Shown here: one piece after another, positions 1,781 through 42,282 of the stretch | How the letters are laid out: every line of letters begins with the position of its first letter | How positions within the stretch are numbered: the stretch's first letter is position 1 | Source: a virus | Lineage: Duplodnaviria; Heunggongvirae; Uroviricota; Caudoviricetes | Reading direction: 5' to 3' (one strand) | DNA length: 64,000 bases | Virus record (IMG/VR): IMGVR_UViG_651053022_000004 | Coordinates: 14,440-78,439 of that record | The notes under the pieces: model-generated | Databases searched by the model: none | Seen by the model: only the letters and a program-made list of their open reading frames with translations | What the model was told of the DNA's origin: nothing | Translations under genes and position numbers: made by a program

Positions 1781-1806
<26 letters not shown>
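1261..1806 (+). CDS. nu1: terminase small subunit
   Basis: 181 aa; MEVNKKQLADIFGASIRTIQNWQEQGMPV... matches lambda gpNu1 almost residue for residue; first gene after cos. Confidence 0.97.
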
Positions 1807-5487
<3,681 letters not shown>

Positions 5488-15201: not shown

Positions 15202-15630
15202 ATGACACAGACAGAATCAGCGATTCTGGCGCACGCCCGGCGATGTGCGCCAGCGGAGTCGTGTGGCTTCGTGGTGAGAACGCCGAAGGGGGAAAGATAT
15301 TTTCCCTGCGTGAATATCTCCGGTGAGCCGGAGGCGTATTTCCGGATGTCGCCGGAGGACTGGCTGCGGGCAGAGATGCAGGGTGAGATTGTGGCGCTGG
15401 TCCACAGCCACCCCGGTGGTCTGCCCTGGCTGAGTGAGGCTGACAGGCGGCTGCAGGTGCAGAGTGATTTGCCGTGGTGGCTGGTCTGCCGGGGGGCGAT
15501 TCATAAGTTCCGCTGTGTGCCGCATCTTACCGGGCGGCGCTTTGAGCACGGGGTGACGGACTGTTACACGCTGTTCCGGGATGCTTATCATCTGGCGGGG
15601 ATAAACCATAGAGCAGAATTATTTTTCTGA
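15202..15630 (+). pseudogene. K: tail tip protein K, truncated after about residue 134 by a sequence discontinuity
   Basis: MTQTESAILAHARRCAPAESCGFV... follows lambda gpK up to ...DCYTLFRDAYHLAGI (nt 15603), then reads NHRAELFF-stop into AT-rich unrelated sequence. Confidence 0.85.
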
Positions 15631-15798
15631 TGTTGTTTATTGTTTATTTAAATGCAGGGTGGTTTATATCTCGTCTTGTAGTTTATCCATGCATATCTGC
15701 TTGATAATCAGGTTTTTATTTAAGGTATGGTTTTGTGTTTTTTCTGTATTACATGTCAGGTATTTTAAAGAATCATTTTTCAGATGGTGGAAAGAACC

Positions 15799-15987
15799 AT
15801 GGCATTTAAACACTATGATGTTGTCAGGGCGGCGTCGCCGTCAGATCTTGCGGAAAAGCTGACACATAAACTGAAAGAGGGCTGGCAGCCGTTTGGTAGT
15901 CCGGTGGCCATAACCCCTTATACCCTGATGCAGGCGATTGCAGCAGAAGGTGATGTGGTGGTCAGTGGTGCAACTGAGCCGGAGTGA
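15799..15987 (+). CDS. small hypothetical protein upstream of the lysis cassette
   Basis: 62 aa from ATG 15799 (MAFKHYDVVRAASPSDLAEKL...), purine-rich stretch upstream; no family assignment. Confidence 0.4.
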   Translation: MAFKHYDVVRAASPSDLAEKLTHKLKEGWQPFGSPVAITPYTLMQAIAAEGDVVVSGATEPE

Positions 15988-16229
15988 TACTACGTCATCG
16001 TACTGGCCCGGCATTCTAGGCCATAAAGGACAGTCTGGCAGTGGGACTAAATGCACTGACGCTGACGGATATTACCAAAAATGCAACGTATGGCGTTGAG
16101 ATAGAAAGTCTGGTGCTGGAGATAAATGTACCGGCATCATCATAAAAAGTGAGCCAGTCAAATGGAAGGTATCGTTAAACTCACCGGTAGTGTCAGTGGG
16201 TCGTCTGAGATGCCTGCATGAGTTATCAG

Positions 16230-16262
16230 AGCCATCAGTACTTAACTGGTGGCTTTTTTTAT
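16230..16262 (+). terminator. intrinsic terminator upstream of the holin, tR'-like position
   Basis: Stem agccatcag / ctggtggct with one G-U pair, 7-nt loop, followed by T7. Confidence 0.5.
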
Positions 16263-16295
16263 TGTTGTCAGCTTCCGGATAACGGGAGACGGGGT

Positions 16296-16511
16296 ATGGA
16301 CCAGATGGAAAAAATCACAACAGGTGTGTCATACACCACGTCAGCGGTGGGAACGGGCTACTGGTTCCTGCAGTTGCTGGACAGGGTTTCCCCGTCTCAG
16401 TGGGCGGCAATAGGCGTGCTGGGGAGTCTGCTGTTTGGGCTGCTGACATATCTGACTAACCTGTATTTCAAAATCAGAGAGGACCGTCGTAAGGCGGCAC
16501 GGGGAGAGTAA
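16296..16511 (+). CDS. class II holin (pinholin), phage 21 S21 family
   Basis: 71 aa [71 protein letters not shown]; dual-start M1/M4 motif; close to S21 as recalled; RBS GGGAGACGGGG upstream. Confidence 0.85.
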
Positions 16512-16515
16512 TTCA

Positions 16516-16866
16516 ATGACTCAAAACTATGAACTGATTGTGAAAGGGATCCGCAATTTTGAGAATAAAGTTACGGTAACTTTAGCGTTACGGGACAAAA
16601 AACGCTTTGACGGTGAAATTTTTGACCTGGACATCTCGCTGGACCGTGTTGAAGGTGCCGCGCTGGAGTTTTATGAGGCAGCAGCCAGAAGGAGCATCAG
16701 ACAGGTCTTCCTGGATGTTGCTGCCGCGTTATGTGAAGGGGATGAGCAGTCGCCGGAAAAGCGCCCCGTAATTTTAGAGGCGCAGAATGTATGGATAACC
16801 TACAAAGGAAAGCTACCGGGAAGAATTACTGGTTCTCTGAAGACTCCTCCGGAATCACAACCTTAA
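16516..16866 (+). CDS. holin-adjacent protein, possibly YdfR/DUF1327-like, with an aberrant C-terminus read from repeat copy A
   Basis: 116 aa MTQNYELIVKGIRNFENKVTVTLALRDKKRFDGEIFDLDISLDRVEGAALEFYEAAARRS...; sits between holin and lysozyme as ydfR does in Qin; last ~38 codons are encoded by the 16748-16860 repeat. Confidence 0.55.
   Translation: MTQNYELIVKGIRNFENKVTVTLALRDKKRFDGEIFDLDISLDRVEGAALEFYEAAARRSIRQVFLDVAAALCEGDEQSPEKRPVILEAQNVWITYKGKLPGRITGSLKTPPESQP
16748..16860. repeat. copy A of a ~113-bp imperfect direct repeat (copy B at 17652-17765)
   Basis: agtcgccggaaaagcgccccgtaattttagaggcgcag...ctaccgggaa..aatta..ggttctctgaaga occurs twice, 904 bp apart, about 88% identical. Confidence 0.85.
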
Positions 16867-16895
16867 GTCACTGACCGGAACAGATAAACCTGTCC

Positions 16896-17428
16896 GTGGG
16901 GCAAAAATCAGATACGGCCTGTCGGCTGCCGTTCTGGCACTGATTGCCGTCGGTGCGCCCGCGCCTGATATTCTCGACCAGTTTCTGGATGAAAAAGAAG
17001 GTAACCACACAACGGCATACCGCGATGGGTCCGGCATCTGGACCATCTGTCGGGGGGCCACGATGGTGGATGGAAAACCCGTTTTTCCCGGTATGAAACT
17101 GTCGAAGGAAAAATGCGACCAGGTCAACGCCATTGAGCGTGATAAGGCGCTGGCATGGGTGGAGCGCAATATTAAAGTACCACTGACCGAACCACAAAAA
17201 GCGGGTATAGCGTCATTCTGTCCCTATAACATTGGCCCCGGTAAGTGTTTCCCGTCGACGTTTTATAAGCGGCTGAATGCCGGTGATCGTAAGGGCGCAT
17301 GCGAGGCGATTCGCTGGTGGATAAAAGATGGTGGGCGCGATTGCCGCATACGTTCAAATAACTGCTATGGACAGGTTATTCGTCGTGACCAGGAAAGCGC
17401 ATTAGCCTGTTGGGGGATAGAGCAGTGA
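16896..17428 (+). pseudogene. SAR endolysin (lysozyme), 5'-truncated copy without start codon
   Basis: Reads (..)KIRYGLSAAVLALIAVGAPAPDILDQFLDEKEGNHTTAYRDG... in frame but nothing precedes KIRYG; the first in-frame ATG (17063) would lack the conserved E-D-T N-terminal region; about 90% identical to the intact copy at 18108. Confidence 0.75.
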
Positions 17429-17829
17429 GCAGAGTCGCCGCGATTATTTATGCTTTGGTTATCTGCATCATCGTCTGCCTGTCGTGGGCGGTCAATCATT
17501 ACCGTGATAACGCCATCGCCTACAAAGAACAGCGTGATAAAAAAGTCAGTGAGCTGAAGCAGTCGATCGCCACCATCGCTGACATGCAGCAGCGTCAGCG
17601 TGATGTTGCTGCACTCGATGCAAAGTACTCGAGAGAATTAGCCAATGCGAAAGTCGCCGGAAAAGCGCCCCGTAATTTTAGAGGCGCAGGATGTGTTGAT
17701 AACCTACAGAGGAAAACTACCGGGAATAATTACGGGTTCTCTGAAGAGTCCGCCGAAATGGTAATTTTACCAGCATATTTTTCATCCAGTAATACAGCAA
17801 GCCGCCTGAAAGAGTCTTGTTGTTCCTGA
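17410..17829 (+). pseudogene. Rz i-spanin N-terminal fragment fused to repeat copy B
   Basis: ...[75 protein letters not shown] matches the first half of the intact Rz at 19284, then runs into the 17652-17765 repeat. Confidence 0.65.
17652..17765. repeat. copy B of the ~113-bp imperfect direct repeat
   Basis: See copy A at 16748-16860. Confidence 0.85.
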
Positions 17830-21086: not shown

Positions 21087-21650
21087 GTGCTGACAACGCA
21101 AAAACGAAAATTTGCGCTGGCGCTCATGTCCGGGAAAAACAAAACAGCGTCAGCCATTGCCGCCGGTTATTCGGCGAAGACCGCCAGGGTTAAAGGCTCG
21201 CAGCTGGCAAAAGATCCTGAGGTGCTTGCGTTTATAGCCCGTAAACAATGCGAGACGGTGGAGGTGGATGAGGTTCCTGTTTACCGGCAGAAAAAATCAG
21301 AGCAGGAGGATAAACCCCGTCGCCGTGAGGCGGCTGCAATACCACAGCCGGACGAAAACAATCTGGAGATGCCACCGTCCGCGGTGATGTCTCCTGGTAT
21401 TGAATATATGGAGGATGGTCTTCCCGATCCGGTGAAAGCCATGGGGCGGATCCTGGTGGAAAACCTCTGCATTGATCCGAAACTGGCACTGGATGCGGCC
21501 TGGCGTCTGGCGCAGTTCACGCACCATAAAAAAGGGGATACCGGGAAAAAATCGGCAAAAGGTGATGCCGCGAAAAAAGCGGCTAACCGTTTTGCGGTGC
21601 CACCGCCCCCCCGACTGGTGGTGAATAACGATAATGAGGGCAACGGATGA
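21087..21650 (+). CDS. terminase small subunit
   Basis: 187 aa, GTG start after RBS GGGAGGAGG; N-terminal HTH-like KRKFALALMSGKNKTASAIAAGYSAKTARVKGSQL; sits immediately before the large subunit gene. Confidence 0.8.
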   Translation: MLTTQKRKFALALMSGKNKTASAIAAGYSAKTARVKGSQLAKDPEVLAFIARKQCETVEVDEVPVYRQKKSEQEDKPRRREAAAIPQPDENNLEMPPSAVMSPGIEYMEDGLPDPVKAMGRILVENLCIDPKLALDAAWRLAQFTHHKKGDTGKKSAKGDAAKKAANRFAVPPPPRLVVNNDNEGNG

Positions 21651-23308
21651 TACCTGTATGGAGCACAGCCTGCCCGGACTGGGCAGAGCGCCTGAAAAAG
21701 GGGCTGTCGATTATTCCGGATCCGATTTATCCGGACGAGGCCGCACATGCCCTGGCGATTTTTAAACAACTGCGGATTGTGGATGCACCTGGTAGCCCTA
21801 CGTTCGGGGAGTCCTGTGCACCGTGGGTGTTTGACCTGGTGGCGGCCCTGTTTGGCTCCTACGATGCGCAGACCGGTGTACGCCATATCAAGGAAGTTTT
21901 TATCCTTATCCCCAAGAAAAACTCGAAGTCCACGCTGGCCGCGGGGATCATGATGACTGCACTGTTACTGAACTGGCGGCAGGCGGCGGGTTACACGATT
22001 CTGGCCCCGACTGTGGAGGTGGCGGCCAACGCCTTCAACCCTGCCCGGGATATGGTACGACGTGACGATGATCTGGATGACCTCTGCCAGGTACAGACCC
22101 ATATCCGGACCATCACCCACCGAGTGACGGACACCACCCTGAAGGTGGTGGCAGCCGATCCGAATACGGTGTCCGGTATCAAGTCCGTGGGTACGCTGAT
22201 TGATGAGTTGTGGCTGTTTGGCAAGCAGTGCAAGGCGGAGGACATGTTACGTGAAGCCATAGGCGGCCTTGCCTCCCGCCCGGAAGGGTTTGTGGTGTAT
22301 ACGACCACCCAGTCGAATGAACCGCCCGCCGGGGTGTTCAGACAGAAACTGCAGTACGCCCGGGATGTGCGCGACGGCAAAATTCATGATCCGCACTTTC
22401 TGCCGGTGATATTTGAACACCCTCCTGAAATGGTGGAAAGCGGGACTAACCTGCTGATGGAAAACCTCGCCATGGTCAATCCGAATCTCGGCTATTCAGT
22501 GGATGAGGCCTTTCTGTACCGGGAGTACCGTAAAGCCCGGGAAGCCGGTGAAGAGACATTCCGGGGGTTCATGTCAAAACACGCCAATGTGGAAATTGGT
22601 CTTGCCCTGCGCTCTGACCGCTGGGCGGGGGCTGATTTCTGGGAAGAGCAGGGCCGTTGTATCAGCCTGGACGATATCCTGCGTCGTGCTGATGTGGTGA
22701 CGGTGGGGATTGACGGCGGAGGGCTGGATGATCTGCTGGGGATGTATGTGATTGGGCGTGACCGGGAGACCCGCGAATGGCTGGGCTGGGGCCATGCCTG
22801 GGCGCATGAAACCGCGGTGGTCCGACGGAAGAGCGAGGCGTCCCGGTTTCAGGATCTTGTTGCCTGTGGAGATATGACCATTGTCCGGCGTGTCGGGGAT
22901 GACACGGCGGAAGTGGCGGAATATGTGCGTCGCATTCATGAGGCTGAGTTACTGGACCATATCGGTATTGACCCGTCAGGGGTGGGGCAGATTCTGGATT
23001 CACTGGCGGAAGCCGGGATCCCCGACGGAATTGTGGTGGGGATAAGCCAGGGCTGGAAACTGGGCGGGGCCATTAAAACCACCGAGCGCAAACTGGCTGA
23101 AGGGGTGCTGGTGCATGGTGACCAGCCCCTGATGGCCTGGTGTGTCGGCAATGCCCGGGTGGAGCCTAAAGGTAACGCCATTCTTATCACCAAACAGGCC
23201 AGTGGACGGGGAAAAATTGACCCGCTGATGGCGCTGTTCAATGCGGTCTCCCTGATGTCCCTTAACCCGGAACCGAAAAAGAAAGAATATGCGGTTTTTT
23301 TCATATAA
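21647..23308 (+). CDS. terminase large subunit
   Basis: 553 aa with P-loop-like FILIPKKNSKST and nuclease-domain acidic motifs; overlaps the TerS stop. Confidence 0.88.
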   Translation: MIPVWSTACPDWAERLKKGLSIIPDPIYPDEAAHALAIFKQLRIVDAPGSPTFGESCAPWVFDLVAALFGSYDAQTGVRHIKEVFILIPKKNSKSTLAAGIMMTALLLNWRQAAGYTILAPTVEVAANAFNPARDMVRRDDDLDDLCQVQTHIRTITHRVTDTTLKVVAADPNTVSGIKSVGTLIDELWLFGKQCKAEDMLREAIGGLASRPEGFVVYTTTQSNEPPAGVFRQKLQYARDVRDGKIHDPHFLPVIFEHPPEMVESGTNLLMENLAMVNPNLGYSVDEAFLYREYRKAREAGEETFRGFMSKHANVEIGLALRSDRWAGADFWEEQGRCISLDDILRRADVVTVGIDGGGLDDLLGMYVIGRDRETREWLGWGHAWAHETAVVRRKSEASRFQDLVACGDMTIVRRVGDDTAEVAEYVRRIHEAELLDHIGIDPSGVGQILDSLAEAGIPDGIVVGISQGWKLGGAIKTTERKLAEGVLVHGDQPLMAWCVGNARVEPKGNAILITKQASGRGKIDPLMALFNAVSLMSLNPEPKKKEYAVFFI

Positions 23309-23371: not shown

Positions 23372-25309
23372 GTGACTCTTAAACGGGCCTGTTCCCTGCT
23401 GACGGTGAAATCCTTCAGTGAGGATGAACGGGTGATCACCGGGATTGCGTCAACGCCTTCTCCGGATCGGGATGGTGACATCCTGGAGCCGGAGGGCGCG
23501 GAGTTTGGCAGTGCGATCCCGTTTCTCTGGCAGCATGACCATTCCCGCCCGGTGGGGCAGTGTACGGTGCGCCGGGTCAGCGAAGGGCTGGAAATCACGG
23601 CAACACTGGTGAAGCCCGTACCGGATATGCCGTCGCAACTGGCTGCCCGGCTGGATGAGGTCTGGGCGGCCATTAAGACCGGGCTGGTCAGGGGGCTGTC
23701 CGTGGGCTTCCGTCCCCATGAATACACCTTTCTGGACGGAGGCGGACTGCATTTTCTGCGCTGGGAACTGATGGAGGTGTCTGCCGTCACCGTGCCCGCG
23801 AATGCGGAATGCACCATCCGGACCATTAAATCTTACGACCGCCCGTTTTCTGCCGCGTCCGGCAACCGGAAACCGGTGGTGAAAATCGCATCTTCTGCCG
23901 GCGCTGCGGCACAGTCAACAACCGTTTTTCATAAGGAAAAGACCATAATGAATATTGGCGAACAGATTAAAAGTTTTGAAAACAAGCGTGCAGCGCTGGC
24001 AGCCTCCCTTGAGGAGGTCATGACCAAAGCCGCAGAGGAAGGGCGCACGCTGGATGTGGAGGAGGAAGAGCATTACGACAACACCGCAGCGGAAATCCGT
24101 CAGGTGGATGCGCACCTGAAGCGCCTGCGTGAACTGGAAGCCGGTAAGGCCGCCACGGCGCAGCCGGTGAAACAGGCCGGTAACGGGAATGTGGCCGCGG
24201 TGGCTTCTGCGCCGGTGATCCGTGTGGAGCAGAAACTGGATAAGGGGATTGGCTTCGCCCGCTTTGCCAAATCGCTGGCTGCGGCTAAAGGCGTCCGATC
24301 TGAAGCCCTGGAAGTGGCCCGTCGTCAGTATCCGGATGACAGTCGTCTGCATCATGTCCTGAAATCGGCAGTGGGCGCGGGGACCACCACGGATCCGCAG
24401 TGGGCAGGCAGCCTGTCTGAATATCAGGAATACGCACAGGACTTTATTGATTACCTGCGTCCGCAGACCATTATCGGGCGATTTGGTCAGGGCGGGATCC
24501 CTGCACTTCGTCAGGTGCCATTCAATATCCGTGTGCACGCCCAGGTGTCCGGCGGTGCTGCCGGCTGGGTGGGTGAGGGTAAGGCAAAACCCCTGACGAA
24601 GTTTGATTTTGAATCCATCACCTTCAGTCATGCGAAGGTGTCGGCCATTGCGGTACTGACGGAAGAATTGATCCGTTTTTCCAGTCCGGCTGCTGATGCA
24701 CTGGTCCGTAATGCGCTGGCGGAAGCGGTGGTGGCGCGTCTGGATACAGACTTTGTGGACCCGAAAAAAGCCGCAGTGGCAGATGTCTCCCCGGCGTCCA
24801 TCACCCATGATGTGAAGGGCACGGCATCAACCGGTAACCCGGATGCGGATGCAGAGGCTGCGTTTGGACAGTTTGTGGCAGCAAACCTGCAGCCCACCGG
24901 TGCGGTCTGGCTGATGTCCAGCACCAATGCCCTGGCACTGTCCATGCGTAAAAATGCGCTGGGTCAGAAGGAATACCCGGACATGACCCTGCTGGGTGGC
25001 TCCTTCCAGGGGCTGCCGGTGATTGTCTCCCAGTACGTGGGTGACCAGCTGGTGCTGGTGAATGCCCCGGATATTTATCTGGCGGATGACGGCGGCGTGG
25101 CAGTGGATATGTCCCGCGAGGCATCACTGGAAATGCAGTCTGAGCCGACCGGCGACAGTACCACGCCGTCCCCGGTGGAGCTGGTTTCCATGTTCCAGAC
25201 AGGCAGCGTGGCCATCCGTGCGGAGCGCTGGATCAACTGGCGTCGTCGCCGTACTGCGGCGGTGGCGGTGATCACCGGAGTGAACTACGGCAGTGCGTCC
25301 GGCGGCTGA
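23372..25309 (+). CDS. prohead protease - scaffold (delta) - major capsid protein fusion, HK97 fold
   Basis: 645 aa; N-terminal S78-like protease region (ITGIASTPSPDRDGDILEP...LWQHD), central coiled-coil region, C-terminal HK97-type capsid region; GTG start after AGGAGG. Confidence 0.8.
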   Translation: MTLKRACSLLTVKSFSEDERVITGIASTPSPDRDGDILEPEGAEFGSAIPFLWQHDHSRPVGQCTVRRVSEGLEITATLVKPVPDMPSQLAARLDEVWAAIKTGLVRGLSVGFRPHEYTFLDGGGLHFLRWELMEVSAVTVPANAECTIRTIKSYDRPFSAASGNRKPVVKIASSAGAAAQSTTVFHKEKTIMNIGEQIKSFENKRAALAASLEEVMTKAAEEGRTLDVEEEEHYDNTAAEIRQVDAHLKRLRELEAGKAATAQPVKQAGNGNVAAVASAPVIRVEQKLDKGIGFARFAKSLAAAKGVRSEALEVARRQYPDDSRLHHVLKSAVGAGTTTDPQWAGSLSEYQEYAQDFIDYLRPQTIIGRFGQGGIPALRQVPFNIRVHAQVSGGAAGWVGEGKAKPLTKFDFESITFSHAKVSAIAVLTEELIRFSSPAADALVRNALAEAVVARLDTDFVDPKKAAVADVSPASITHDVKGTASTGNPDADAEAAFGQFVAANLQPTGAVWLMSSTNALALSMRKNALGQKEYPDMTLLGGSFQGLPVIVSQYVGDQLVLVNAPDIYLADDGGVAVDMSREASLEMQSEPTGDSTTPSPVELVSMFQTGSVAIRAERWINWRRRRTAAVAVITGVNYGSASGG

Positions 25310-25520: not shown

Positions 25521-27197
25521 ATGTGGAACCTTTTACGGCGAACCCGAAAAAACCAGAAATCAGGACGTGACGTAAGAGAGGCGGGCTGGACCAGCCTGTT
25601 TCAGGCGGTGGCTGAGCCCTTTTCCGGCGCCTGGCAGCAGGGCGTGAAAGCCGATCCTGAAGCCGTCCTCTCCTTTCATGCGGTGTTTGCATGTATTTCG
25701 CTGATATCCCGGGATATCGCCAAAATGCGGCTGCGTCTTATGCAGACGGATGCGCATGGGATACGCAGGGAAACGCGCCGGGGGGATATTGCCCGCCTCT
25801 GTCGTCGTCCCAACGCCCAGCAGAACCGCATCCAGTTTTTTGAACTGTGGCTGAACGCCAAACTGCGTCATGGCAATACGGTGGTGCTGAAAATCCGTAA
25901 TGCCCGGGGGCAGATCAAAGAACTGCGTATTCTGGACTGGAGCCGGGTTGAACCTCTGGTGGCGGATGACGGCGAGGTGTTCTACCGCATCACGCCGGAC
26001 CGGAACTGCGGGATCACGGAGGCGGTGACGGTGCCTGCCCGGGAAGTGATCCACGACCGGTTTAACTGTTTTTTTCATCCGCTTATAGGATTGCCGCCGG
26101 TGTATGCCGCCGGGCTGGCGGCCACGCAGGGGCATCATATTCAGGAAAATTCGACGTCTTTTTTCAGAAATGGCGGCAGGCCGTCCGGGGTGATTGAGAT
26201 CCCCGGCAGTATTACGGAAGAAAATGCGAAAAAACTGAAGAGCAACTGGGACAGCGGGTATACAGGCGAAAATGCGGGGAAAACGGCCATTCTGAGCAAC
26301 GGGGCAAAATACAACCCCACGACGTTTTCACCTGTGGATGCGCAGACGGTGGAACAACTGAAGATGACCGCTGAAATTGTCTGTTCGGTGTTCCGTGTCC
26401 CGGCCTACAAGATTGGCGTGGGACAACCGCCTTCCAGTGACAACGTGGAGGCGCTGGAGCAGCAGTATTATTCCCAGTGCCTGCAGACGCTGATTGAGTC
26501 CATTGAACTGTTACTGGATGAGGCGCTGGAAACGGGGGAAAACGAGAGTACAGAATTTGATGTCACCACGCTGCTGAGAATGGACAGTGAGCGGCGCATG
26601 AAAACGCTGGGGGATGCGGTGAAAAATACGCTTCTCACGCCCAATGAGGCCCGTAAACGGGAGAACCTGCCGCCCCTGGCCGGCGGTGATGCACTGTATC
26701 TTCAGCAGCAGAACTACAGTCTGGAGGCGCTGTCCCGTCGTGATGCCCGTGAGGATCCGTTCGCGTCTGCCGGGAAAACAGTTTCATCACAGCTGCCTGA
26801 CGGCGCATCTGACGGTAATAAGGCAATCAGTGAAACAGAGCATGATGCGGTGAAAGCGATGTTCAGGGGGGATACTGAGAAAATGACGGAACGGGAACTG
26901 TCCATTATTCGTGCACTGGGAGAAGAATTCTCCACAGTGCTGGCGGATTTACAGCGCACATTTGAGGGGAAGATGGCCTCGCAGGCACAAGCGTTTGAAG
27001 AGAAACTGACTTCCCTGTCGGCGGTATTACAGAAGCATGTGACGGTGGATGAGGTGCGTCCGGTTCTGCAGGCGATGGTGGATGACGCTGTGGGGGCCAT
27101 TCCGGTACCGCGTGATGGTCGTGATTATGATCCGGATGTACTGCAGCATGGTGAAGGAGGCTGTAAGCCATATCCCTGTTCCGCGCGACGGTCGTGA
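25521..27197 (+). CDS. portal protein (HK97 family) with C-terminal repeat extension; frame breaks inside the repeat array
   Basis: 558 aa; core is alignable by eye to the module-3 portal (FRNGGRPSGVIEIPG vs FFNGNARPAGIISVKN, PVDAQ motif); the C-terminal IPVPRDGRDYDPDV repeats continue in another frame (27049 ORF). Confidence 0.75.
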   Translation: MWNLLRRTRKNQKSGRDVREAGWTSLFQAVAEPFSGAWQQGVKADPEAVLSFHAVFACISLISRDIAKMRLRLMQTDAHGIRRETRRGDIARLCRRPNAQQNRIQFFELWLNAKLRHGNTVVLKIRNARGQIKELRILDWSRVEPLVADDGEVFYRITPDRNCGITEAVTVPAREVIHDRFNCFFHPLIGLPPVYAAGLAATQGHHIQENSTSFFRNGGRPSGVIEIPGSITEENAKKLKSNWDSGYTGENAGKTAILSNGAKYNPTTFSPVDAQTVEQLKMTAEIVCSVFRVPAYKIGVGQPPSSDNVEALEQQYYSQCLQTLIESIELLLDEALETGENESTEFDVTTLLRMDSERRMKTLGDAVKNTLLTPNEARKRENLPPLAGGDALYLQQQNYSLEALSRRDAREDPFASAGKTVSSQLPDGASDGNKAISETEHDAVKAMFRGDTEKMTERELSIIRALGEEFSTVLADLQRTFEGKMASQAQAFEEKLTSLSAVLQKHVTVDEVRPVLQAMVDDAVGAIPVPRDGRDYDPDVLQHGEGGCKPYPCSARRS

Positions 27198-27480
27198 CTA
27201 TGATCCCGATGTTCTGCAGAAGGCGGTGAATGATGCGGTCGCAAATATTCCGCAGCCGGCGGACGGTAAAAGTCTCACCCCGGATGATGTGCGTCCGATG
27301 CTTGAACAGATGGTGAAGGAGGCTGTAAGCCATATCCCTGTTCCGCGTGATGGTCGTGACTACGATCCGGAAGTAGATGTGCGTCCGATGCTTGAACAGA
27401 TGGTGAAGGAGGCGGTAAGCCATATTCATGTTCCGCGTGATGGTCGTGACTACGATCCGGATGTTCTGCAGAAGGCGGTT
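27040..27480 (+). repeat. coding tandem repeat array (unit ~90 bp, motif IPVPRDGRDYDP[DE]V x4)
   Basis: gatgtgcgtccgatgcttgaacagatggtgaaggaggc...ccgcgtgatggtcgtgactacgatccgga repeated with period 90 bp (27286 and 27376) plus degenerate copies from 27049. Confidence 0.85.
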
Positions 27481-27945
27481 CTGGATGCGGTGAGTGCCCT
27501 GCCGGCTCCGCAGGACGGGCGTGATGCCACGGCTCTGGAAATACTCCCCGCCATTGACGATCAAAAATCCTTTCCCCGGGGCACGTATGCCACACACCAG
27601 GGCGGACTCTGGCGGGCGTATGAAAAAACGCACGGGATGCGGGGATGGGAATGCCTGGTTGACGGGGTGGCGGATATTGACGTCAGCATGACGGGTGAGC
27701 GGTTGTTCTCTGTGGTGGTCCGGCAGAGCAGTGGCCAGCGTACGGAAAAAACATTTTCCCTGCCGGTGATGCTCTACCGCGGTGTGTTCAGAGCCGGTGA
27801 AACCTACCACCCCGGCGATACGGTGACGTGGGGGGGCTCGCTGTGGCACTGCAACAGTATGACCGAAGATAAACCCGGAGAAGCTCATTCATCAGCCTGG
27901 ACCCTGGCTGCAAAACGTGGGCGGGATGCAGGAGGCGGAAAATGA
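27049..27945 (+). CDS. repeat-containing head protein; either a separate gene or the frameshifted continuation of the portal
   Basis: 298-aa ORF in the +1 frame relative to the portal; N-terminal third consists of the same repeats; C-terminal ~190 aa unique. Confidence 0.45.
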   Translation: MRCVRFCRRWWMTLWGPFRYRVMVVIMIRMYCSMVKEAVSHIPVPRDGRDYDPDVLQKAVNDAVANIPQPADGKSLTPDDVRPMLEQMVKEAVSHIPVPRDGRDYDPEVDVRPMLEQMVKEAVSHIHVPRDGRDYDPDVLQKAVLDAVSALPAPQDGRDATALEILPAIDDQKSFPRGTYATHQGGLWRAYEKTHGMRGWECLVDGVADIDVSMTGERLFSVVVRQSSGQRTEKTFSLPVMLYRGVFRAGETYHPGDTVTWGGSLWHCNSMTEDKPGEAHSSAWTLAAKRGRDAGGGK

Positions 27946-28268
27946 CGGCATTACTGACACTGGAAGAGATCAAGGCACATCTGCGTGTCGACCATGACGC
28001 GGATGATGACATGCTGATGGACAAGGTTCGTCAGGCTACCGCCGTGCTGCTGGCCTACATTCAGGGCAGCCGGGATAAAGTGATCCGTGAGGACGGTGAA
28101 CTGATCCCGGGCGAGGCATTAACCCGGATGAAGGGGGCTGCCATGCGACTGACCGGGATGCTGTACCGGAATCCGGATCTTGCGGAGCGGGAAGAACTGC
28201 TTCAGGGGGAGCTGCCGTTTTCTGTTTCCGTGCTGATTTACGATTTGCGTTGTCCGACGGTGTTATGA
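27942..28268 (+). CDS. head-tail connector protein (gp6-like)
   Basis: 108 aa; position after the head genes; weak similarity to the module-3 connector (45557). Confidence 0.65.
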   Translation: MTALLTLEEIKAHLRVDHDADDDMLMDKVRQATAVLLAYIQGSRDKVIREDGELIPGEALTRMKGAAMRLTGMLYRNPDLAEREELLQGELPFSVSVLIYDLRCPTVL

Positions 28269-36885: not shown

Positions 36886-39078
36886 ATGGGAAAAGGTGGC
36901 GGTAAGGCACACACGCCTCGTGAGGCGAAGGATAATCTCAAATCCACGCAGATGATGAGCGTGATTGATGCGATTGGTGAGGGACCGATAGAAGGTCCGG
37001 TGAAGGGACTGCAGAGTATTCTGGTGAACAAAACCCCACTGACGGACACGGACGGCAATCCCGTGATACACGGTGTGACGGCGGTCTGGCGCGCCGGGGA
37101 GCAGGAGCAGACACCACCGGAAGGCTTTGAGTCCTCCGGAGCTGAAACCGGACTGGGCGTGGAAGTGACGAAGGCAAAACCGGTGACGCGCACCATTACG
37201 TCCGCGAACATTGACCGCCTGCGGGTTACCTTCGGGGTGCAGTCACTGGTGGAGACCACCTCAAAGGGTGACCGTAACCCGGCATCCGTCCGCCTGCTGA
37301 TTCAGTTACAGCGTAACGGTAACTGGGTGACAGAAAAGGACGTCACCATTAACGGCAAGACCACCTCACAGTTCCTGGCCTCGGTGATTCTGGATAATCT
37401 GCCTCCCCGGCCCTTTAACATCCGGATGGTCAGGGAGACGGCGGACAGCACCACGGACCAGCTGCAGAATAAGACGCTGTGGTCGTCATACACCGAAATC
37501 ATCGATGTGAAACAGTGCTACCCGAACACGGCCATTGTGGGGCTGCAGGTGGATGCGGAGCAGTTCGGCGGCCAGCAGATGACGGTGAACTACCATATCC
37601 GCGGTCGCATCATCCAGGTGCCGTCAAACTATGACCCGGAAAAACGCACGTATAGTGGTATCTGGGACGGCAGTCTGAAACCGGCATACAGCAACAACCC
37701 GGCCTGGTGTCTGTGGGACATGCTGACTCACCCGCGCTACGGCATGGGAAAACGTCTGGGGGCGGCGGATGTGGACAAGTGGGCGCTGTATGCCATCGGG
37801 CAGTACTGCGACCAGACGGTCCCGGATGGTTTCGGGGGGACCGAGCCGCGGATGACCTTTAATGCGTACCTGGCACAACAGCGTAAGGCGTGGGACGTTC
37901 TCAGTGATTTCTGCTCTGCGATGCGCTGTATGCCGGTATGGAACGGTCAGACGCTGACGTTCGTTCAGGACCGCCCGTCGGATGTGGTGTGGCCGTACAC
38001 CAACAGCGATGTGGTGGTGGATGATAACGGCGTGGGATTCCGCTACAGCTTCAGTGCCCTGAAGGACCGGCACACGGCGGTGGAGGTGAATTACACCGAC
38101 CCGCAGAACGGCTGGCAGACCTCCACGGAACTGGTGGAAGACCCGGAAGCCATACTGCGCTACGGACGCAACCTGCTGAAGATGGACGCGTTCGGCTGTA
38201 CCAGCCGCGGTCAGGCCCACCGTGCCGGACTGTGGGTGATAAAGACCGAACTGCTGGAAACGCAGACGGTGGATTTCACGCTCGGGTCTCAGGGGCTGCG
38301 GCACACACCCGGTGACATTATTGAAATCTGTGATAATGACTATGCCGGGACCCTGACCGGCGGACGTGTCCTGTCCATTGATGCTGCCACCCGCACCCTG
38401 ACGCTGGACCGTGAGGTTACCCTGCCGGAGACAGGTACATCGGCGGTGAACCTGATTAACGGCAGCGGTAAGCCGGTGAGTGTGGACATCACCGCACACC
38501 CCGCGCCGGACCGGATACAGGTCAGTACCCTGCCTGATGGTGTGGAGACATACGGGGTGTGGGGACTCTCCCTGCCGTCACTGCGCCGTCGCCTGTTCCG
38601 CTGTGTCTCCATCCGGGAAAACACGGACGGCACCTTTGCCATCACGGCGGTGCAGCACGTACCGGAAAAAGAAGCCATCGTGGATAACGGTGCCCGCTTT
38701 GAGCCGCAGTCAGGTTCCCTGAACAGCGTCATCCCACCGGCAGTGCAGCACCTGACGGTGGAGGTGAGCGCAGCTGACGGCCAGTATCTGGCGCAGGCGA
38801 AATGGGACACGCCGCGGGTGGTGAAGGGTGTGCGCTTCAGTCTGCGCCTGACCAGTGGTAAGGGAACGGATGCCAGACTGGTGACCACCGCCATCACCGC
38901 AGACACGGAGCACCGTTTCAGCGGCCTGCCGCTCGGGGAATACACCCTGACGGTGCGGGCGATAAACAGCTATGGCCAGCAGGGTGAACCTGCCACCACC
39001 ACCTTCCGGATTGCCGCACCGGCAGCACCGTCGCGGATTGAGCTGACGCCGGGCTATTTTCAGATAACTAAACGATAG
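36886..39078 (+). pseudogene. host specificity protein J, C-terminally truncated (730 aa, no receptor-binding domain)
   Basis: MGKGGGKAHTPREAKDNLKSTQMMSVIDAIGEGPIEGP... is colinear with lambda gpJ to ...[18 protein letters not shown], then KR-stop; the last ~400 aa of J are absent. Confidence 0.85.
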
Positions 39079-40042: not shown

Positions 40043-40525
40043 ATGTCTGGACCCCCGAAAACCCCGCCACGCCTGCATTTGATACGAGGCAACCCCTCAA
40101 AGCGGCCAGTTAAAGACCTCAAAAAAACCGCTAAAAAGGATGAAAAAGGTCTCCCTAAAATTCCGCAACATTTAGGGGCGCAGGGGAAGTACTGGTTCAG
40201 GCGAATGGCGGAAGAGCTGAATGCGGAAGGGATCATTTCTCAGCTTGATGCGCGTGCGCTTGAGCTACTGGTGGAAGCCTATACCGAATACCGGCATCAC
40301 TGCGAAACACTCGATGTTGAGGGGTACACCTACCGCTCGAAAACGCAGAACGGTGATGTGCTGATTAAGGCACACCCGGCTGCTGCGATGAAAGCGGATG
40401 CCTGGAAGCGGATCCGGGCGATGCTTGCAGAATTTGGTATGTCACCGGCAAGCCGGGCAAAAGTAAATACCGCCGGACCGGATAATGTTGATCCGCTGGC
40501 AGAGCTTTTAAAAGCGAGAGACTGA
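40043..40525 (+). CDS. terminase small subunit (P27 family)
   Basis: 160 aa; basic N-terminus, position directly before the large subunit gene. Confidence 0.8.
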   Translation: MSGPPKTPPRLHLIRGNPSKRPVKDLKKTAKKDEKGLPKIPQHLGAQGKYWFRRMAEELNAEGIISQLDARALELLVEAYTEYRHHCETLDVEGYTYRSKTQNGDVLIKAHPAAAMKADAWKRIRAMLAEFGMSPASRAKVNTAGPDNVDPLAELLKARD

Positions 40526-42282
40526 TGGCAAAAGTGGCTGACGGGATCCGCTACGCCGAACGTGTTGTTGCAGGAGAAATTGTTGCTGGCGAATTTGTCC
40601 GCCTGGCCTGCCAGCGTTTTCTTGATGATCTGAAGTACGGCGAAAAGCGGGGGATTTATTTCAGTGAACCCCGTGCGCAGCACATCCTGAATTTCTACAA
40701 ATTTGTGCCTCATGTAAAAGGGGCACTGGCAGGCCAGCCCATTGAGTTGATGGACTGGCATGTATTTATCCTCATTAATATTTTTGGTTTTGTCATTCCG
40801 CTGGTCAATGAAGAAACCGGGGAAGTTGTCATGCGCAGCGATGGCAGCGGACGTCCGGTGATGGTGCGCCGGTTCCGGACGGCGTACAACGAAGTCGCCC
40901 GTAAAAACGCAAAATCAACCCTGTCATCGGGTATCGGCCTGTATATGACGGGGGCAGATAGTGAAGGCGGAGCTGAGGTGTATTCAGCCGCAACCACGCG
41001 TGACCAGGCCAGAATCGTGTTTGAAGACGCCAAAAATATGGTCAGAAAAGCCCGGTCGACACTCGGGCGGTTGTTTGATTTCAACAAGCTGGCGATTTAC
41101 CAGGAGCAGAGCGCATCAAAATTTGAACCGCTTTCCTCGGATGCAAACAACCTGGACGGTCTGAACATCCACTGCGCCATTATTGATGAGCTGCATGCAC
41201 ATAAAACCCGCGACGTGTGGGACGTTCTGGAAACGGCAACCGGTGCCCGTCTGCAGTCCCTGTTATTTGGTATCACCACGGCTGGCTTTAACAAGGAAGG
41301 GATTTGTTACGAGCAGCGTGATTACGCCATCAAGGTATTGCGAGGCTATAACAGCGACGTGGAGGGCGCTGTAAAAGACGACTCTTACTTTGCGATCATT
41401 TACACGCTTGATGAGGGAGATGATCCGTTTGATGAAACGGTCTGGCAGAAAGCGAATCCTGGCCTGGGCATCTGTAAACGCTGGGATGATCTGCGTCGTC
41501 TGGCGAAAAAAGCGAAGGAGCAGGTCTCTGCGCGGGTGAATTTTTTTACCAAACACATGAATGTGTGGGTCACTGCCGAATCTGCCTGGATGGATATGAT
41601 TAAGTGGGAGAAGTGCGAATACATTGCTCCACAACATGAGCTGAAAACATATCCCATGTGGGTCGGCGTCGACCTTGCTCATAAGATTGATATCTGTGCG
41701 GCGGCAAAACTCTGGCGAACCGATAACGGACATGTTCATGCTGATTTTAAATTCTGGCTTCCGGAAGGACGGCTGGAACGATGCTCGCGGCAGCAGGCAG
41801 AACTTTACCGGAAGTGGGCGGAGATGGATAAGCTCATCCTGACGGATGGTGATGTTATCGATCATGCTCAGATAAAAAGTGACTTACTGGAATGGATTGG
41901 CGGTGAAAACCTCAGGGAACTGGGATTTGACCCGTGGAGCGCAATGCAGTTCAGTCTGGCACTGGCTGAAGAAGGGATACCGCTGGTGGAGGTTCCGCAG
42001 ACGGTCCGCAATCTGTCAGAGGCCATGAAGGAAACGGAATCACTGGTTTATGCCGGGCGTTTCCATCACAGCAATCATCCGGTCATGAACTGGATGATGT
42101 CTAACGTTACTGTAAAACCGGACAAAAACGACAACATCTTCCCGAATAAATCCACGCCGGAAGCCAAAATCGACGGCCCTGTTGCGCTTTTTACAGCCAT
42201 GAGCCGCTTTCTGGTAAATGGCGGGGGCGTGAATGACTTTCTGTCCACGCTTGATCCTGATGAGGACCTGTTAATTCTGTGA
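40525..42282 (+). CDS. terminase large subunit
   Basis: 585 aa; ATPase Walker-like and RNaseH-like nuclease motifs; ATGA overlap with the TerS stop. Confidence 0.9.
   Translation: MAKVADGIRYAERVVAGEIVAGEFVRLACQRFLDDLKYGEKRGIYFSEPRAQHILNFYKFVPHVKGALAGQPIELMDWHVFILINIFGFVIPLVNEETGEVVMRSDGSGRPVMVRRFRTAYNEVARKNAKSTLSSGIGLYMTGADSEGGAEVYSAATTRDQARIVFEDAKNMVRKARSTLGRLFDFNKLAIYQEQSASKFEPLSSDANNLDGLNIHCAIIDELHAHKTRDVWDVLETATGARLQSLLFGITTAGFNKEGICYEQRDYAIKVLRGYNSDVEGAVKDDSYFAIIYTLDEGDDPFDETVWQKANPGLGICKRWDDLRRLAKKAKEQVSARVNFFTKHMNVWVTAESAWMDMIKWEKCEYIAPQHELKTYPMWVGVDLAHKIDICAAAKLWRTDNGHVHADFKFWLPEGRLERCSRQQAELYRKWAEMDKLILTDGDVIDHAQIKSDLLEWIGGENLRELGFDPWSAMQFSLALAEEGIPLVEVPQTVRNLSEAMKETESLVYAGRFHHSNHPVMNWMMSNVTVKPDKNDNIFPNKSTPEAKIDGPVALFTAMSRFLVNGGGVNDFLSTLDPDEDLLIL

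What the first reader, a model, noticed from the sequence alone, without database searches (positions are those of the whole stretch)
25521..27945. Portal gene C-terminal extension made of 90-bp coding tandem repeats with a frame break
The motif IPVPRDGRDYDP[DE]V recurs four times. The portal frame ends at 27197 inside the array while the +1 frame carries the repeats on for another ~200 aa of unique sequence. This is either a repeat-mediated frameshift (pseudogene), a slippage-prone contingency locus, or a mis-assembled repeat.
Basis: seen in the sequence. Interest (0 to 1): 0.5.

Follow-up and report, generated by a model that had tools for sequence, protein, structure and literature searches.

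The report
Broken copy of portal–fibre fusion gene
The "portal extension" is a normally separate, repeat-containing fibre-like phage gene that a one-base insertion fused to the portal gene in a common E. coli prophage lineage. The frame break is a loss of 89 bases found only in this sequence, most likely an assembly defect or a private inactivating deletion, not a programmed signal.

Summary
The repeats and the frame break are real in this sequence, but the true repeat period is 162 bp: a 72-bp A half-unit plus a 90-bp B half-unit.

The window is an ST131/phage-2851-type lambdoid prophage. It shows 1 SNP and no indel in 6.4 kb outside the array. That lineage carries one intact 861-aa ORF annotated "phage portal protein".

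That ORF is a derived fusion. In Klebsiella, Salmonella, Serratia, Pantoea and many Stx phages such as BP-4795, a 451-454-aa portal ends ...RG(I/L)L.K*. A separate 245-520-aa gene ("X") follows with an ATGA overlap. A G5-to-G6 change (window 26866-26871) fuses them.

X has an N-terminal helix, a stalk of variable repeat number and a C-terminal tandem CBM5/12-like domain. It belongs to a very large, uncharacterised phage family.

The window's array has two blunt joins, with 89 nt and 72 nt missing. Neither join occurs in 5,426 complete E. coli genomes or three public contig collections. No slippery site exists at the break.

The window also holds other blunt joins typical of abutted draft contigs. 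My estimates are assembly artefact about 0.55, private pseudogenising deletion about 0.38, and programmed or phase-variable under 0.05. This is an ordinary finding.

The parts
25521..26882 (+). Portal protein proper (HK97 family), equivalent to the 451-454-aa stand-alone portals of relatives
   Evidence: PF04860 matches aa 54-382 at E=1.7e-81. TIGR01537 portal_HK97 matches at 349 bits on the intact relative. The portal end ...AM[FLI]RG[ILF]L.K* is conserved in two-gene relatives.
26866..26871 (+). G6 run. Relatives with G5 terminate the portal at AAAATGA and start gene X at that ATG. G6 reads through and fuses the two.
   Evidence: Alignment and junction comparison. The G6 39-mer is exact in 752 E. 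coli records and the G5 (TTCA) form in 367.
26883..26885 (+). ATG that is the start codon of gene X (MTERELSII...) in the two-gene form. Here it is in frame with the portal.
26883..27050 (+). N-terminal conserved helix of X (MTERELSIIRALGEEF...)
   Evidence: Alignment A1. The AF2 model predicts a long helix at residues 3-50 with low to moderate confidence.
27051..27140 (+). Degenerate first B unit (B0)
27141..27148 (+). First 8 nt of the A1 unit (CTGCAGCA), followed by blunt join 1 at 27148|27149. Here 89 nt are missing relative to the intact 2586-nt allele, which shifts the frame by +1.
27149..27213 (+). Last 65 nt of a B unit, identical to B2 of the ST131 allele
   Evidence: Exact-match walk: window 27149-27260 = reference 1880-1991.
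27195..27197 (+). TGA that ends the portal reading frame after 16 out-of-frame codons (HGEGGCKPYPCSARRS*)
27214..27285 (+). A unit (A2 type)
27286..27375 (+). B unit identical to B1 of the ST131 allele, followed by blunt join 2 at 27375|27376. Here a whole 72-nt A unit is missing, which is an in-frame loss.
27376..27465 (+). B unit identical to B3 (IHVP variant)
27466..27537 (+). Terminal degenerate A' unit (VLQKAVLDAVSALPAPQDGRDATAL)
27505..27942 (+). Conserved C-terminal beta domain of X: tandem CBM5/12-like modules
   Evidence: AF2 pLDDT 93.9. Foldseek matches chitin-binding modules and phage tail fibres. Pfam CBM_5_12 scores 22.1 bits here and passes the cut-off in relatives P0128 and P0249. 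5505 representative clusters match.
27942..28268 (+). Head-tail connector gene, overlapping the end of X by ATGA

Best explanation
The locus is the portal gene of an ST131/phage-2851-type lambdoid prophage. In this E. coli lineage an extra G in a G-run (G5 to G6) has fused the portal to the next gene, X. X is a fibre-like virion protein with three parts: an N-terminal helix, a stalk of alternating 72-nt and 90-nt coding half-units whose number varies among relatives (0 to 6 pairs seen), and a C-terminal tandem CBM5/12-like domain. The intact fused gene is one 2586-nt ORF. In the window, the array has two blunt internal joins. One lacks 89 nt and causes the +1 frame break. The other lacks exactly one 72-nt A unit. 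The remaining units stand in an order (B2-tail, A2, B1, B3) that the intact allele does not have. I think the most likely cause is a defect of the sequence record, such as a repeat that was collapsed, mis-threaded or abutted during assembly of a draft genome. It is not a biological frameshift signal. Shown: the gene's identity, the fusion mechanism, the exact anatomy of the joins and their uniqueness. Inferred: that the joins are an artefact, and that X is a fibre.
For: Outside the array, the window differs from the ST131 prophage by 1 SNP and 0 indels over 6.4 kb, and is 99.99% identical over 9.5 kb. All structural change is confined to about 230 nt. The three array pieces are exact substrings of the intact allele joined bluntly with at most 1 nt of microhomology. 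The B2-A2-B1 order is a valid de Bruijn walk of the intact allele only for k of 48 or less (inference). Neither join occurs as one piece in 5,426 complete E. coli genomes. Neither occurs in the genome-contig collection; the frame-breaking join is also absent from viral contigs and metagenome contigs. The resulting proteins are not on record. In 50 of 52 related arrays, motif spacing is strictly in register. The window has further blunt joins at about 15602 (inside tail gene K) and about 39068 (inside tail gene J). These are absent from every complete genome, and the ST131 prophage continues past them. This is the pattern of abutted draft contigs. Many database copies of this protein are 'partial' on 1-2 kb contigs, so the array routinely breaks short-read assemblies. 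The missing lengths sum to 161 nt, one short of a repeat period.
Against: A pure de Bruijn assembler cannot invent the junction k-mers CTGCAGCATGGTG and GGAAGTAGATGTG, so an extra step is required, such as contig abutting, gap removal or polishing. I cannot see the reads. Another draft-derived locus (L049) also has out-of-register joins with 2-4 nt of microhomology, so real microhomology-mediated deletions in this array are possible. Neighbouring genes show no sign of general base-level error.
Confidence: 0.55

Rival explanations
1. The joins are real. A private, complex rearrangement (two deletions, or one template-switching event) in the repeat array of a resident prophage truncated the portal-X fusion after 89 residues of X. 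It left the stalk and carbohydrate-binding domain untranslatable, which makes this a pseudogene of the X part. The portal part may still work.
For: Junction k-mers must come from some molecule unless contigs were abutted (reasoning). Other frame-broken alleles exist in relatives: a 1-nt deletion in L026, out-of-register deletions in L049, and 'pseudogene' portal records in Stx2a_WGPS4 and WGPS8. E. coli prophages are often defective; for example, gpJ is frameshifted in the ST131 copy.
Against: Two independent non-homologous events plus a unit-order change fall within 230 nt, while 6.4 kb of flank shows only 1 SNP. Neither junction is seen in any other public sequence searched. The window shows other signs of being pieced together.
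Confidence: 0.38
2. This is a programmed +1 ribosomal frameshift, or reinitiation at ATG 27148, that joins or co-expresses the two frames.
For: The two frames overlap by 149 nt. An AAGGAGG sequence lies at 27154, and an ATG at 27148 opens the +1 frame at the junction.
Against: Close relatives read straight through in one frame, so the two-frame arrangement is not conserved. There is no X_XXY_YYZ heptamer and no CUU_UGA-type +1 motif in the overlap. AAGGAGG is simply the codons K-E-A of every B unit. The junction is unique to this sequence.
Confidence: 0.02
3. This is a contingency (phase-variable) locus in which repeat slippage switches the extension on and off.
For: Repeat number varies widely among relatives, from 0 to 6 AB units. 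A separate G5/G6 polymorphism 280 nt upstream toggles between fused and separate genes, and both states are common.
Against: Unit length is 162 nt, a multiple of 3, so copy-number change never shifts the frame. The frame break here comes from a blunt 89-nt loss, not from slippage. G6 is short for a high-rate switch. The G-run state travels with flanking haplotypes (TTCA-G6, TTCA-G5, TTGA-G5) rather than varying freely.
Confidence: 0.04

Closest known systems
861-aa 'phage portal protein' WP_000267294.1 of E. coli ST131-type prophages, and gp59 (YP_009909244.1, 859 aa) of Stx2c phage 2851
   Same: The gene and the G6 fusion are the same, and the flanks are identical or nearly so (1-5 mismatches in about 2200 nt). 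Unit sequences are the same.
   Different: Those alleles are one uninterrupted ORF with the array B0-A-B-A-B-A-B-A'. The window lacks 89 + 72 nt at blunt joins and is out of frame.
Two-gene arrangement: BP-4795 ORF58 (portal, 454 aa) + ORF59 (461 aa); Salmonella phage FSL SP-016 SP016_00160/00155; Klebsiella prophage 452-aa portal + 402-aa protein
   Same: The gene order is the same: TerL, protease-capsid fusion, small ORF, portal, X, head-tail connector. X has the same architecture and the same conserved N- and C-termini.
   Different: There the portal stops at ...RG(I/L)L.K* and X starts at the overlapping ATGA. In the window's lineage an extra G removes that stop.
MuF / SPP1 gp7 minor head proteins
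   Same: The gene lies immediately downstream of the portal gene and carries a variable C-terminal part. SPP1 gp7 binds the portal (PMC5576092). This is a positional and possibly functional analogy.
   Different: X has no PF04233 or PF06152 match. X has a repeat or collagen-like stalk and CBM5/12 modules rather than a MuF domain.
CBM5/12-tipped and collagen-stalk phage fibres (e.g. Agrobacterium phage 7-7-1 tail fibres 9rkv, Milano receptor-binding complex 8fqc)
   Same: The C-terminal domain is built of CBM5/12-like beta modules. Some X-family members replace the helical repeats with collagen triple-helix repeats.
   Different: Global superpositions are poor (TM 0.25-0.3), and only the small modules match. 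X is encoded in the head/neck module, not the tail-tip module.

Membership tests
HK97-family phage portal protein (PF04860 / TIGR01537) | Portal domain matched above the curated cut-off | tested here: met
   PF04860 scores 274 bits against a cut-off of 39.1 at aa 54-382. TIGR01537 scores 349 bits on the intact relative.
HK97-family phage portal protein (PF04860 / TIGR01537) | Position in a head-morphogenesis module next to terminase, protease/capsid and head-tail adaptors | tested here: met
Protein X family (phrog_1289 / phrog_16748; no Pfam or NCBIfam model) | Conserved C-terminal ~140-aa domain | tested here: met
   phrog_16748 matches at E=2e-97. 5505 representative clusters match. In the window the domain is intact but sits in the +1 frame.
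Protein X family (phrog_1289 / phrog_16748; no Pfam or NCBIfam model) | Own start codon (M[NT]ERELS...) overlapping the portal stop (ATGA), giving a stand-alone product | tested here: not met
   The G6 run removes the portal stop, so the ATG at 26883 is internal. Among IMG/VR loci, 60 of 67 are separate, almost all with the 4-nt overlap, and 5 are fused.
Protein X family (phrog_1289 / phrog_16748; no Pfam or NCBIfam model) | Continuous reading frame from N-terminal helix through stalk to C-terminal domain | tested here: not met
   An 89-nt loss at 27148|27149 breaks the frame.
CBM5/12 carbohydrate-binding module | Sequence match above the Pfam gathering score | tested here: inconclusive
   The window scores 22.1 bits against a cut-off of 26.2. 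Relatives P0128 (28.6 bits) and P0249 (29.5 bits) pass.
CBM5/12 carbohydrate-binding module | Fold of the small three-stranded chitin-binding module | tested here: met
   Foldseek local matches reach rmsd 1.6-3 A over 47-50 residues to ChBDs 2rts, 2d49 and 1wvv, and match tandem CBM deacetylases.
CBM5/12 carbohydrate-binding module | Actual glycan binding | not testable with these tools
   This needs binding assays.
Programmed ribosomal frameshift site | Slippery motif at the frame junction | tested here: not met
   No heptamer or +1 motif lies in 27049-27197.
Programmed ribosomal frameshift site | Two-frame arrangement conserved among relatives | tested here: not met
   Relatives are in one frame at this position, and the junction is unique.
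Phase-variable contingency locus | Short repeat tract whose length changes shift the frame | tested here: not met
   The array unit is 162 nt, a multiple of 3. For the separate G5/G6 run the test is inconclusive.
MuF / SPP1 gp7 minor head protein | MuF domain (PF04233 / PF06152) | tested here: not met
   No such hit at E <= 0.1 or E <= 0.01.

The most novel reading that the evidence does not exclude
Protein X may be an uncharacterised, very widespread virion component: more than 5,500 clusters at 50% identity, no curated family and no solved structure. It is translationally coupled to the portal and repeatedly found fused to it: in E. coli G6 alleles, including isolated phage 2851, and in a distant 1237-aa fusion, P0144. 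If the fused forms are functional, up to twelve length-variable, carbohydrate-binding stalks are tethered to the portal C-terminus. That end is expected to face the capsid interior, which would imply either an internal portal-anchored glycan- or peptidoglycan-binding device or an unsuspected topology at the portal vertex. A single G-run would then switch between tethered and free forms.
Probability: 0.25. Interest if true: 0.55.

Novelty: already known. Interest (0 to 1): 0.2.

Why it matters
For the finding itself, little. It is a damaged or mis-assembled copy of a gene present and annotated in hundreds of E. coli genomes.

Three side results have practical value.

- **Annotation.** The label "phage portal protein" has spread from fused alleles to thousands of stand-alone X proteins. 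PGAP flags the ancestral two-gene form as "frameshifted" or "incomplete" pseudogenes.
- **Assembly.** The 162-bp array breaks short-read assemblies of lambdoid prophages, so frame calls here should not be trusted without long reads.
- **Biology.** X is a large, unstudied family with the architecture of a glycan-binding fibre, carried by Stx-converting phages. It could bear on phage adsorption or retention in the gut.

Tried and rejected
- **Programmed frameshift.** I scanned the overlap for -1 heptamers and +1 motifs and found none. The AAGGAGG is ordinary coding sequence of each B unit.
- **Array as contingency locus.** Rejected, because the unit length is a multiple of 3.
- **Same junctions elsewhere.** None found in E. 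coli genomes, viral contigs (24), genome contigs (25, 59) or metagenome contigs (58). Exact-protein look-ups for the 558-, 298- and 265-aa products also found nothing.
- **Simple derivation from the intact allele by two deletions.** This does not fit the ST131 unit order, since B2-tail precedes B1. It needs a different parental order or a chimeric path.
- **Window array as a 2-unit allele off by one base.** Rejected, because it has 65 nt too much B and 64 nt too little A sequence.
- **My first estimate that the fused G6 form is rare.** That estimate came from 'best place per record' samples and was wrong. Exact 39-mer counts show G6 in 752 records against G5 (TTCA) in 367.
- **Spurious weak hits ignored.** TetR_C_35, iPGM_N, DUF4244 and QatB (faint).
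- **Full-length X model.** It was too poor to use (pLDDT 53.5), so only the C-terminal domain model was used.
- **Solved structures.** Sequence searches found no homologue.
- **Literature.** Searches found no study of this protein. The phage 2851 paper (PMC2583581) is not held.
Full report
**Observation.** The window has an ORF at 25521-27197 (558 aa). A second ORF lies in the +1 frame at 27049-27945 (298 aa). It ends with an ATGA overlap onto a head-tail connector gene. TRF finds a 90-nt period at 27286-27461 with 2.0 copies at 96% match. The repeat finder finds four related copies with spacings of 73, 162 and 90 nt. The PRDGRDYDP motif occurs four times across the two frames, one copy as IHVP. 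The description is therefore correct and far from chance.

**What the locus is.** The surrounding genes form an HK97-like head module. The order is terminase, a 645-aa protease-capsid fusion, a small ORF, the portal, the head-tail connector, the head closure protein, gp10 and gp17.
- Megablast finds the region in 1,251 records of complete E. coli genomes and 93 phage records, mostly long-tailed Stx-converting phages.
- Outside the array the window is almost identical to an ST131 prophage. It shows 1 SNP and no indel in 6.4 kb, and 99.99% identity over 9.5 kb.
- In that prophage, and in many others, the gene is one intact 2586-nt ORF. Its product is the 861-aa 'phage portal protein' WP_000267294.1.
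- Isolated phage 2851 has the same fused gene. From memory, phage 2851 is an inducible, infectious Stx2c phage (Strauch et al. 2008). I could not read that paper here.

**The 'extension' is a fused neighbouring gene.** The portal domain covers only aa 54-382.
- In Klebsiella, Pantoea, Raoultella and Serratia prophages, in Salmonella phage FSL SP-016 and in Stx1 phage BP-4795, a 451-454-aa portal is followed by a separate gene, here called X.
- X starts M(N/T)ERELS... and overlaps the portal stop by ATGA.
- In 67 IMG/VR loci with enough upstream sequence, 60 have the two-gene form, almost all with the 4-nt overlap. Five are fused, all of them E. coli-like.
- The portal C-terminus ...AM[FLI]RG[ILF]L.K* is conserved at the protein level across genera in the two-gene form. 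That form is therefore ancestral.
- The fused form differs by one extra G: TTCAGGGGGGAT at window 26866-26871, against G5 in the two-gene form.
- Both states are common in E. coli. The exact G6 39-mer occurs in 752 records and the G5 (TTCA) form in 367, with a further TTGA-G5 allele not counted.
- PGAP annotates the two-gene form as 'frameshifted' or 'incomplete' portal pseudogenes. Stand-alone X proteins are widely named 'phage portal protein' or 'gp6-like head-tail connector'.

**What X looks like.** Alignment of 16 homologues shows three parts: a conserved N-terminal segment, a variable middle and a strongly conserved C-terminal region of about 140 aa.
- The middle of the E. coli type alternates two half-units. 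A is 24 aa and contains IP.PADGKS; B is 30 aa and contains IP.PRDGRDYDP. Each is predicted as one helix plus a proline-rich loop.
- The number of AB pairs varies from 0 to 6 among relatives. Gene lengths run 2099/2100, 2261/2262, 2423/2424, 2585/2586, 2747/2748 and 3072 nt.
- The C-terminal domain alone matches 5,505 representative clusters (50% identity level) at E <= 1e-3. Nearly all are 200-500-aa proteins with the domain at the very end.
- Some members carry collagen triple-helix repeats instead of the helical units (P0128). One distant member is a 1237-aa portal fusion with about 25 repeats (P0144).
- A deep-alignment AlphaFold model of the domain is confident, at pLDDT 93.9. Foldseek matches tandem CBM5/12 chitin-binding modules, phage tail fibres and collagen-repeat phage proteins.
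- Pfam CBM_5_12 is just under threshold in the window and above it in two relatives.
- No NCBIfam model, no MuF domain and no solved homologue exist.
- Inference: X is an oligomeric, fibre-like virion protein with a length-variable stalk and a glycan-binding tip. It is functionally tied to the portal through translational coupling and recurrent fusion. Its location on or in the virion is unknown.

**Anatomy of the frame break.** Compared with the intact ST131 allele, the window is made of exact pieces.
- The gene up to window 27148 equals reference 1-1628.
- Window 27149-27260 equals reference 1880-1991.
- Window 27261-27375 equals reference 1668-1782.
- Window 27376-27945 equals reference 2017-2586.

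In units, this reads B0, the first 8 nt of A1, | the last 65 nt of B2, A2, B1, | B3, A'.
- Join 1 lacks 89 nt, which puts everything downstream in the +1 frame. The portal frame then runs 16 junk codons to the TGA at 27195.
- Join 2 lacks exactly one 72-nt A unit and is in frame.
- Both joins are blunt, with at most 1 nt of microhomology.
- B2-tail precedes B1, unlike the reference order.
- In 50 of 52 related arrays the motif spacing is strictly 78/84/162 nt. The exceptions are the window and one draft-derived locus, L049.

**Is it biology?** Neither join is found as a single piece in 5,426 complete E. coli genomes, where matches always split with +89 and +72 nt. Exact join sequences are also absent from the contig collections. 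Both joins are missing from GTDB genome contigs, and the frame-breaking join is also missing from IMG/VR and JGI metagenomes. The truncated proteins are not on record. The overlap has no -1 heptamer and no +1 motif. The AAGGAGG at 27154 is the K-E-A codons of every B unit. Relatives read through in one frame. A programmed frameshift and a phase-variable array are therefore rejected.

**Artefact or real lesion?** The following points favour an artefact.
- Two structural changes and a unit-order change fall within 230 nt, against 1 SNP in 6.4 kb of flank.
- The window contains other blunt joins. One is at about 15602, inside tail gene K. Another is at about 39068, inside tail gene J.
- No complete genome has those joins, and the ST131 prophage continues past both of them.
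- The window strings together three phage late modules, as abutted draft contigs would.
- Many database copies of this protein are 'partial' on 1-2 kb contigs.
- The missing lengths sum to 161 nt, one short of a period.

The following points count against an artefact.
- A pure de Bruijn assembler cannot create novel junction k-mers.
- L049 shows that out-of-register deletions with short microhomology exist at least in other draft data.
- Base-level accuracy around the array is high.

I put the artefact at about 0.55 and a real private pseudogenising rearrangement at about 0.38. If the lesion is real, the product would be a portal carrying 89 residues of X plus 16 junk residues. The stalk and the CBM domain would be lost.

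**Comparison and novelty.** The gene, its repeats and its fused form are already in the databases, though they are functionally unstudied and mislabelled. The frame break is either not real or an ordinary private lesion. The closest positional analogue of X is the MuF/SPP1 gp7 class, whose genes lie immediately downstream of portals and whose product binds the portal (PMC5576092). X is not a member of that family.

**Verdict.** Interest is low. The somewhat more interesting by-product is the portal-X fusion/fission polymorphism and the large uncharacterised X family.

Noticed in passing
window ~15602 and ~39066-39068 (also 1781-3706, 21647-23308, 40525-42282): The window strings together three phage late modules in the same orientation, with large-terminase genes at 1781, 21647 and 40525. 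They are separated by blunt joins inside tail gene K (15602) and tail gene J (about 39068). Neither join exists in any of 5,426 complete E. coli genomes, and the ST131 prophage that matches 17652-39068 continues past both. The source looks like abutted or chimeric draft contigs.
   Followed up: yes
window 26866-26871: A G5/G6 polymorphism decides whether the portal and the next gene are separate (ATGA-coupled) or fused. Both states are common in E. coli: 752 records for G6 against at least 367 for G5. Isolated phages carry either state: 2851 is fused, while BP-4795 and FSL SP-016 are separate.
   Followed up: yes
L003, L006, L007 (PGAP records); P0032-P0066: NCBI's pipeline marks the ancestral two-gene form as 'frameshifted/incomplete' portal pseudogenes. 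Stand-alone X proteins are named 'phage portal protein', 'gp6-like head-tail connector' or 'Carbohydrate binding domain'. This looks like systematic mis-annotation spread from the fused alleles.
   Followed up: partly
P0144 (1237 aa), P0128 (426 aa), L018 (3072-nt gene): The X family shows extreme stalk plasticity. One distant portal fusion has about 25 'helix-PEPEPLPDI' repeats. One member has collagen triple-helix repeats in place of the helical units. One E. coli allele has 6 AB units (1023 aa).
   Followed up: partly
L049 3757|3758 and 3879|3880; L026 gene position ~1572: Other damaged alleles occur in IMG/VR isolate-derived contigs. L049 has an 18-nt in-frame loss and a 50-nt out-of-frame loss with 2-4 nt of microhomology. 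L026 has a 1-nt deletion in B0.
   Followed up: partly
window 23372-25309: The capsid gene is a 645-aa fusion of a prohead protease (Peptidase_S78) and an HK97-type major capsid domain. It lies upstream of the portal rather than downstream, and the same order is seen in Klebsiella and Salmonella relatives.
   Followed up: no
window 15602-17652: The lysis/nanS-p region at the left end of the ST131-like fragment is rearranged relative to the ST131 prophage. About 1.5 kb is absent and one segment is only 85% identical.
   Followed up: no
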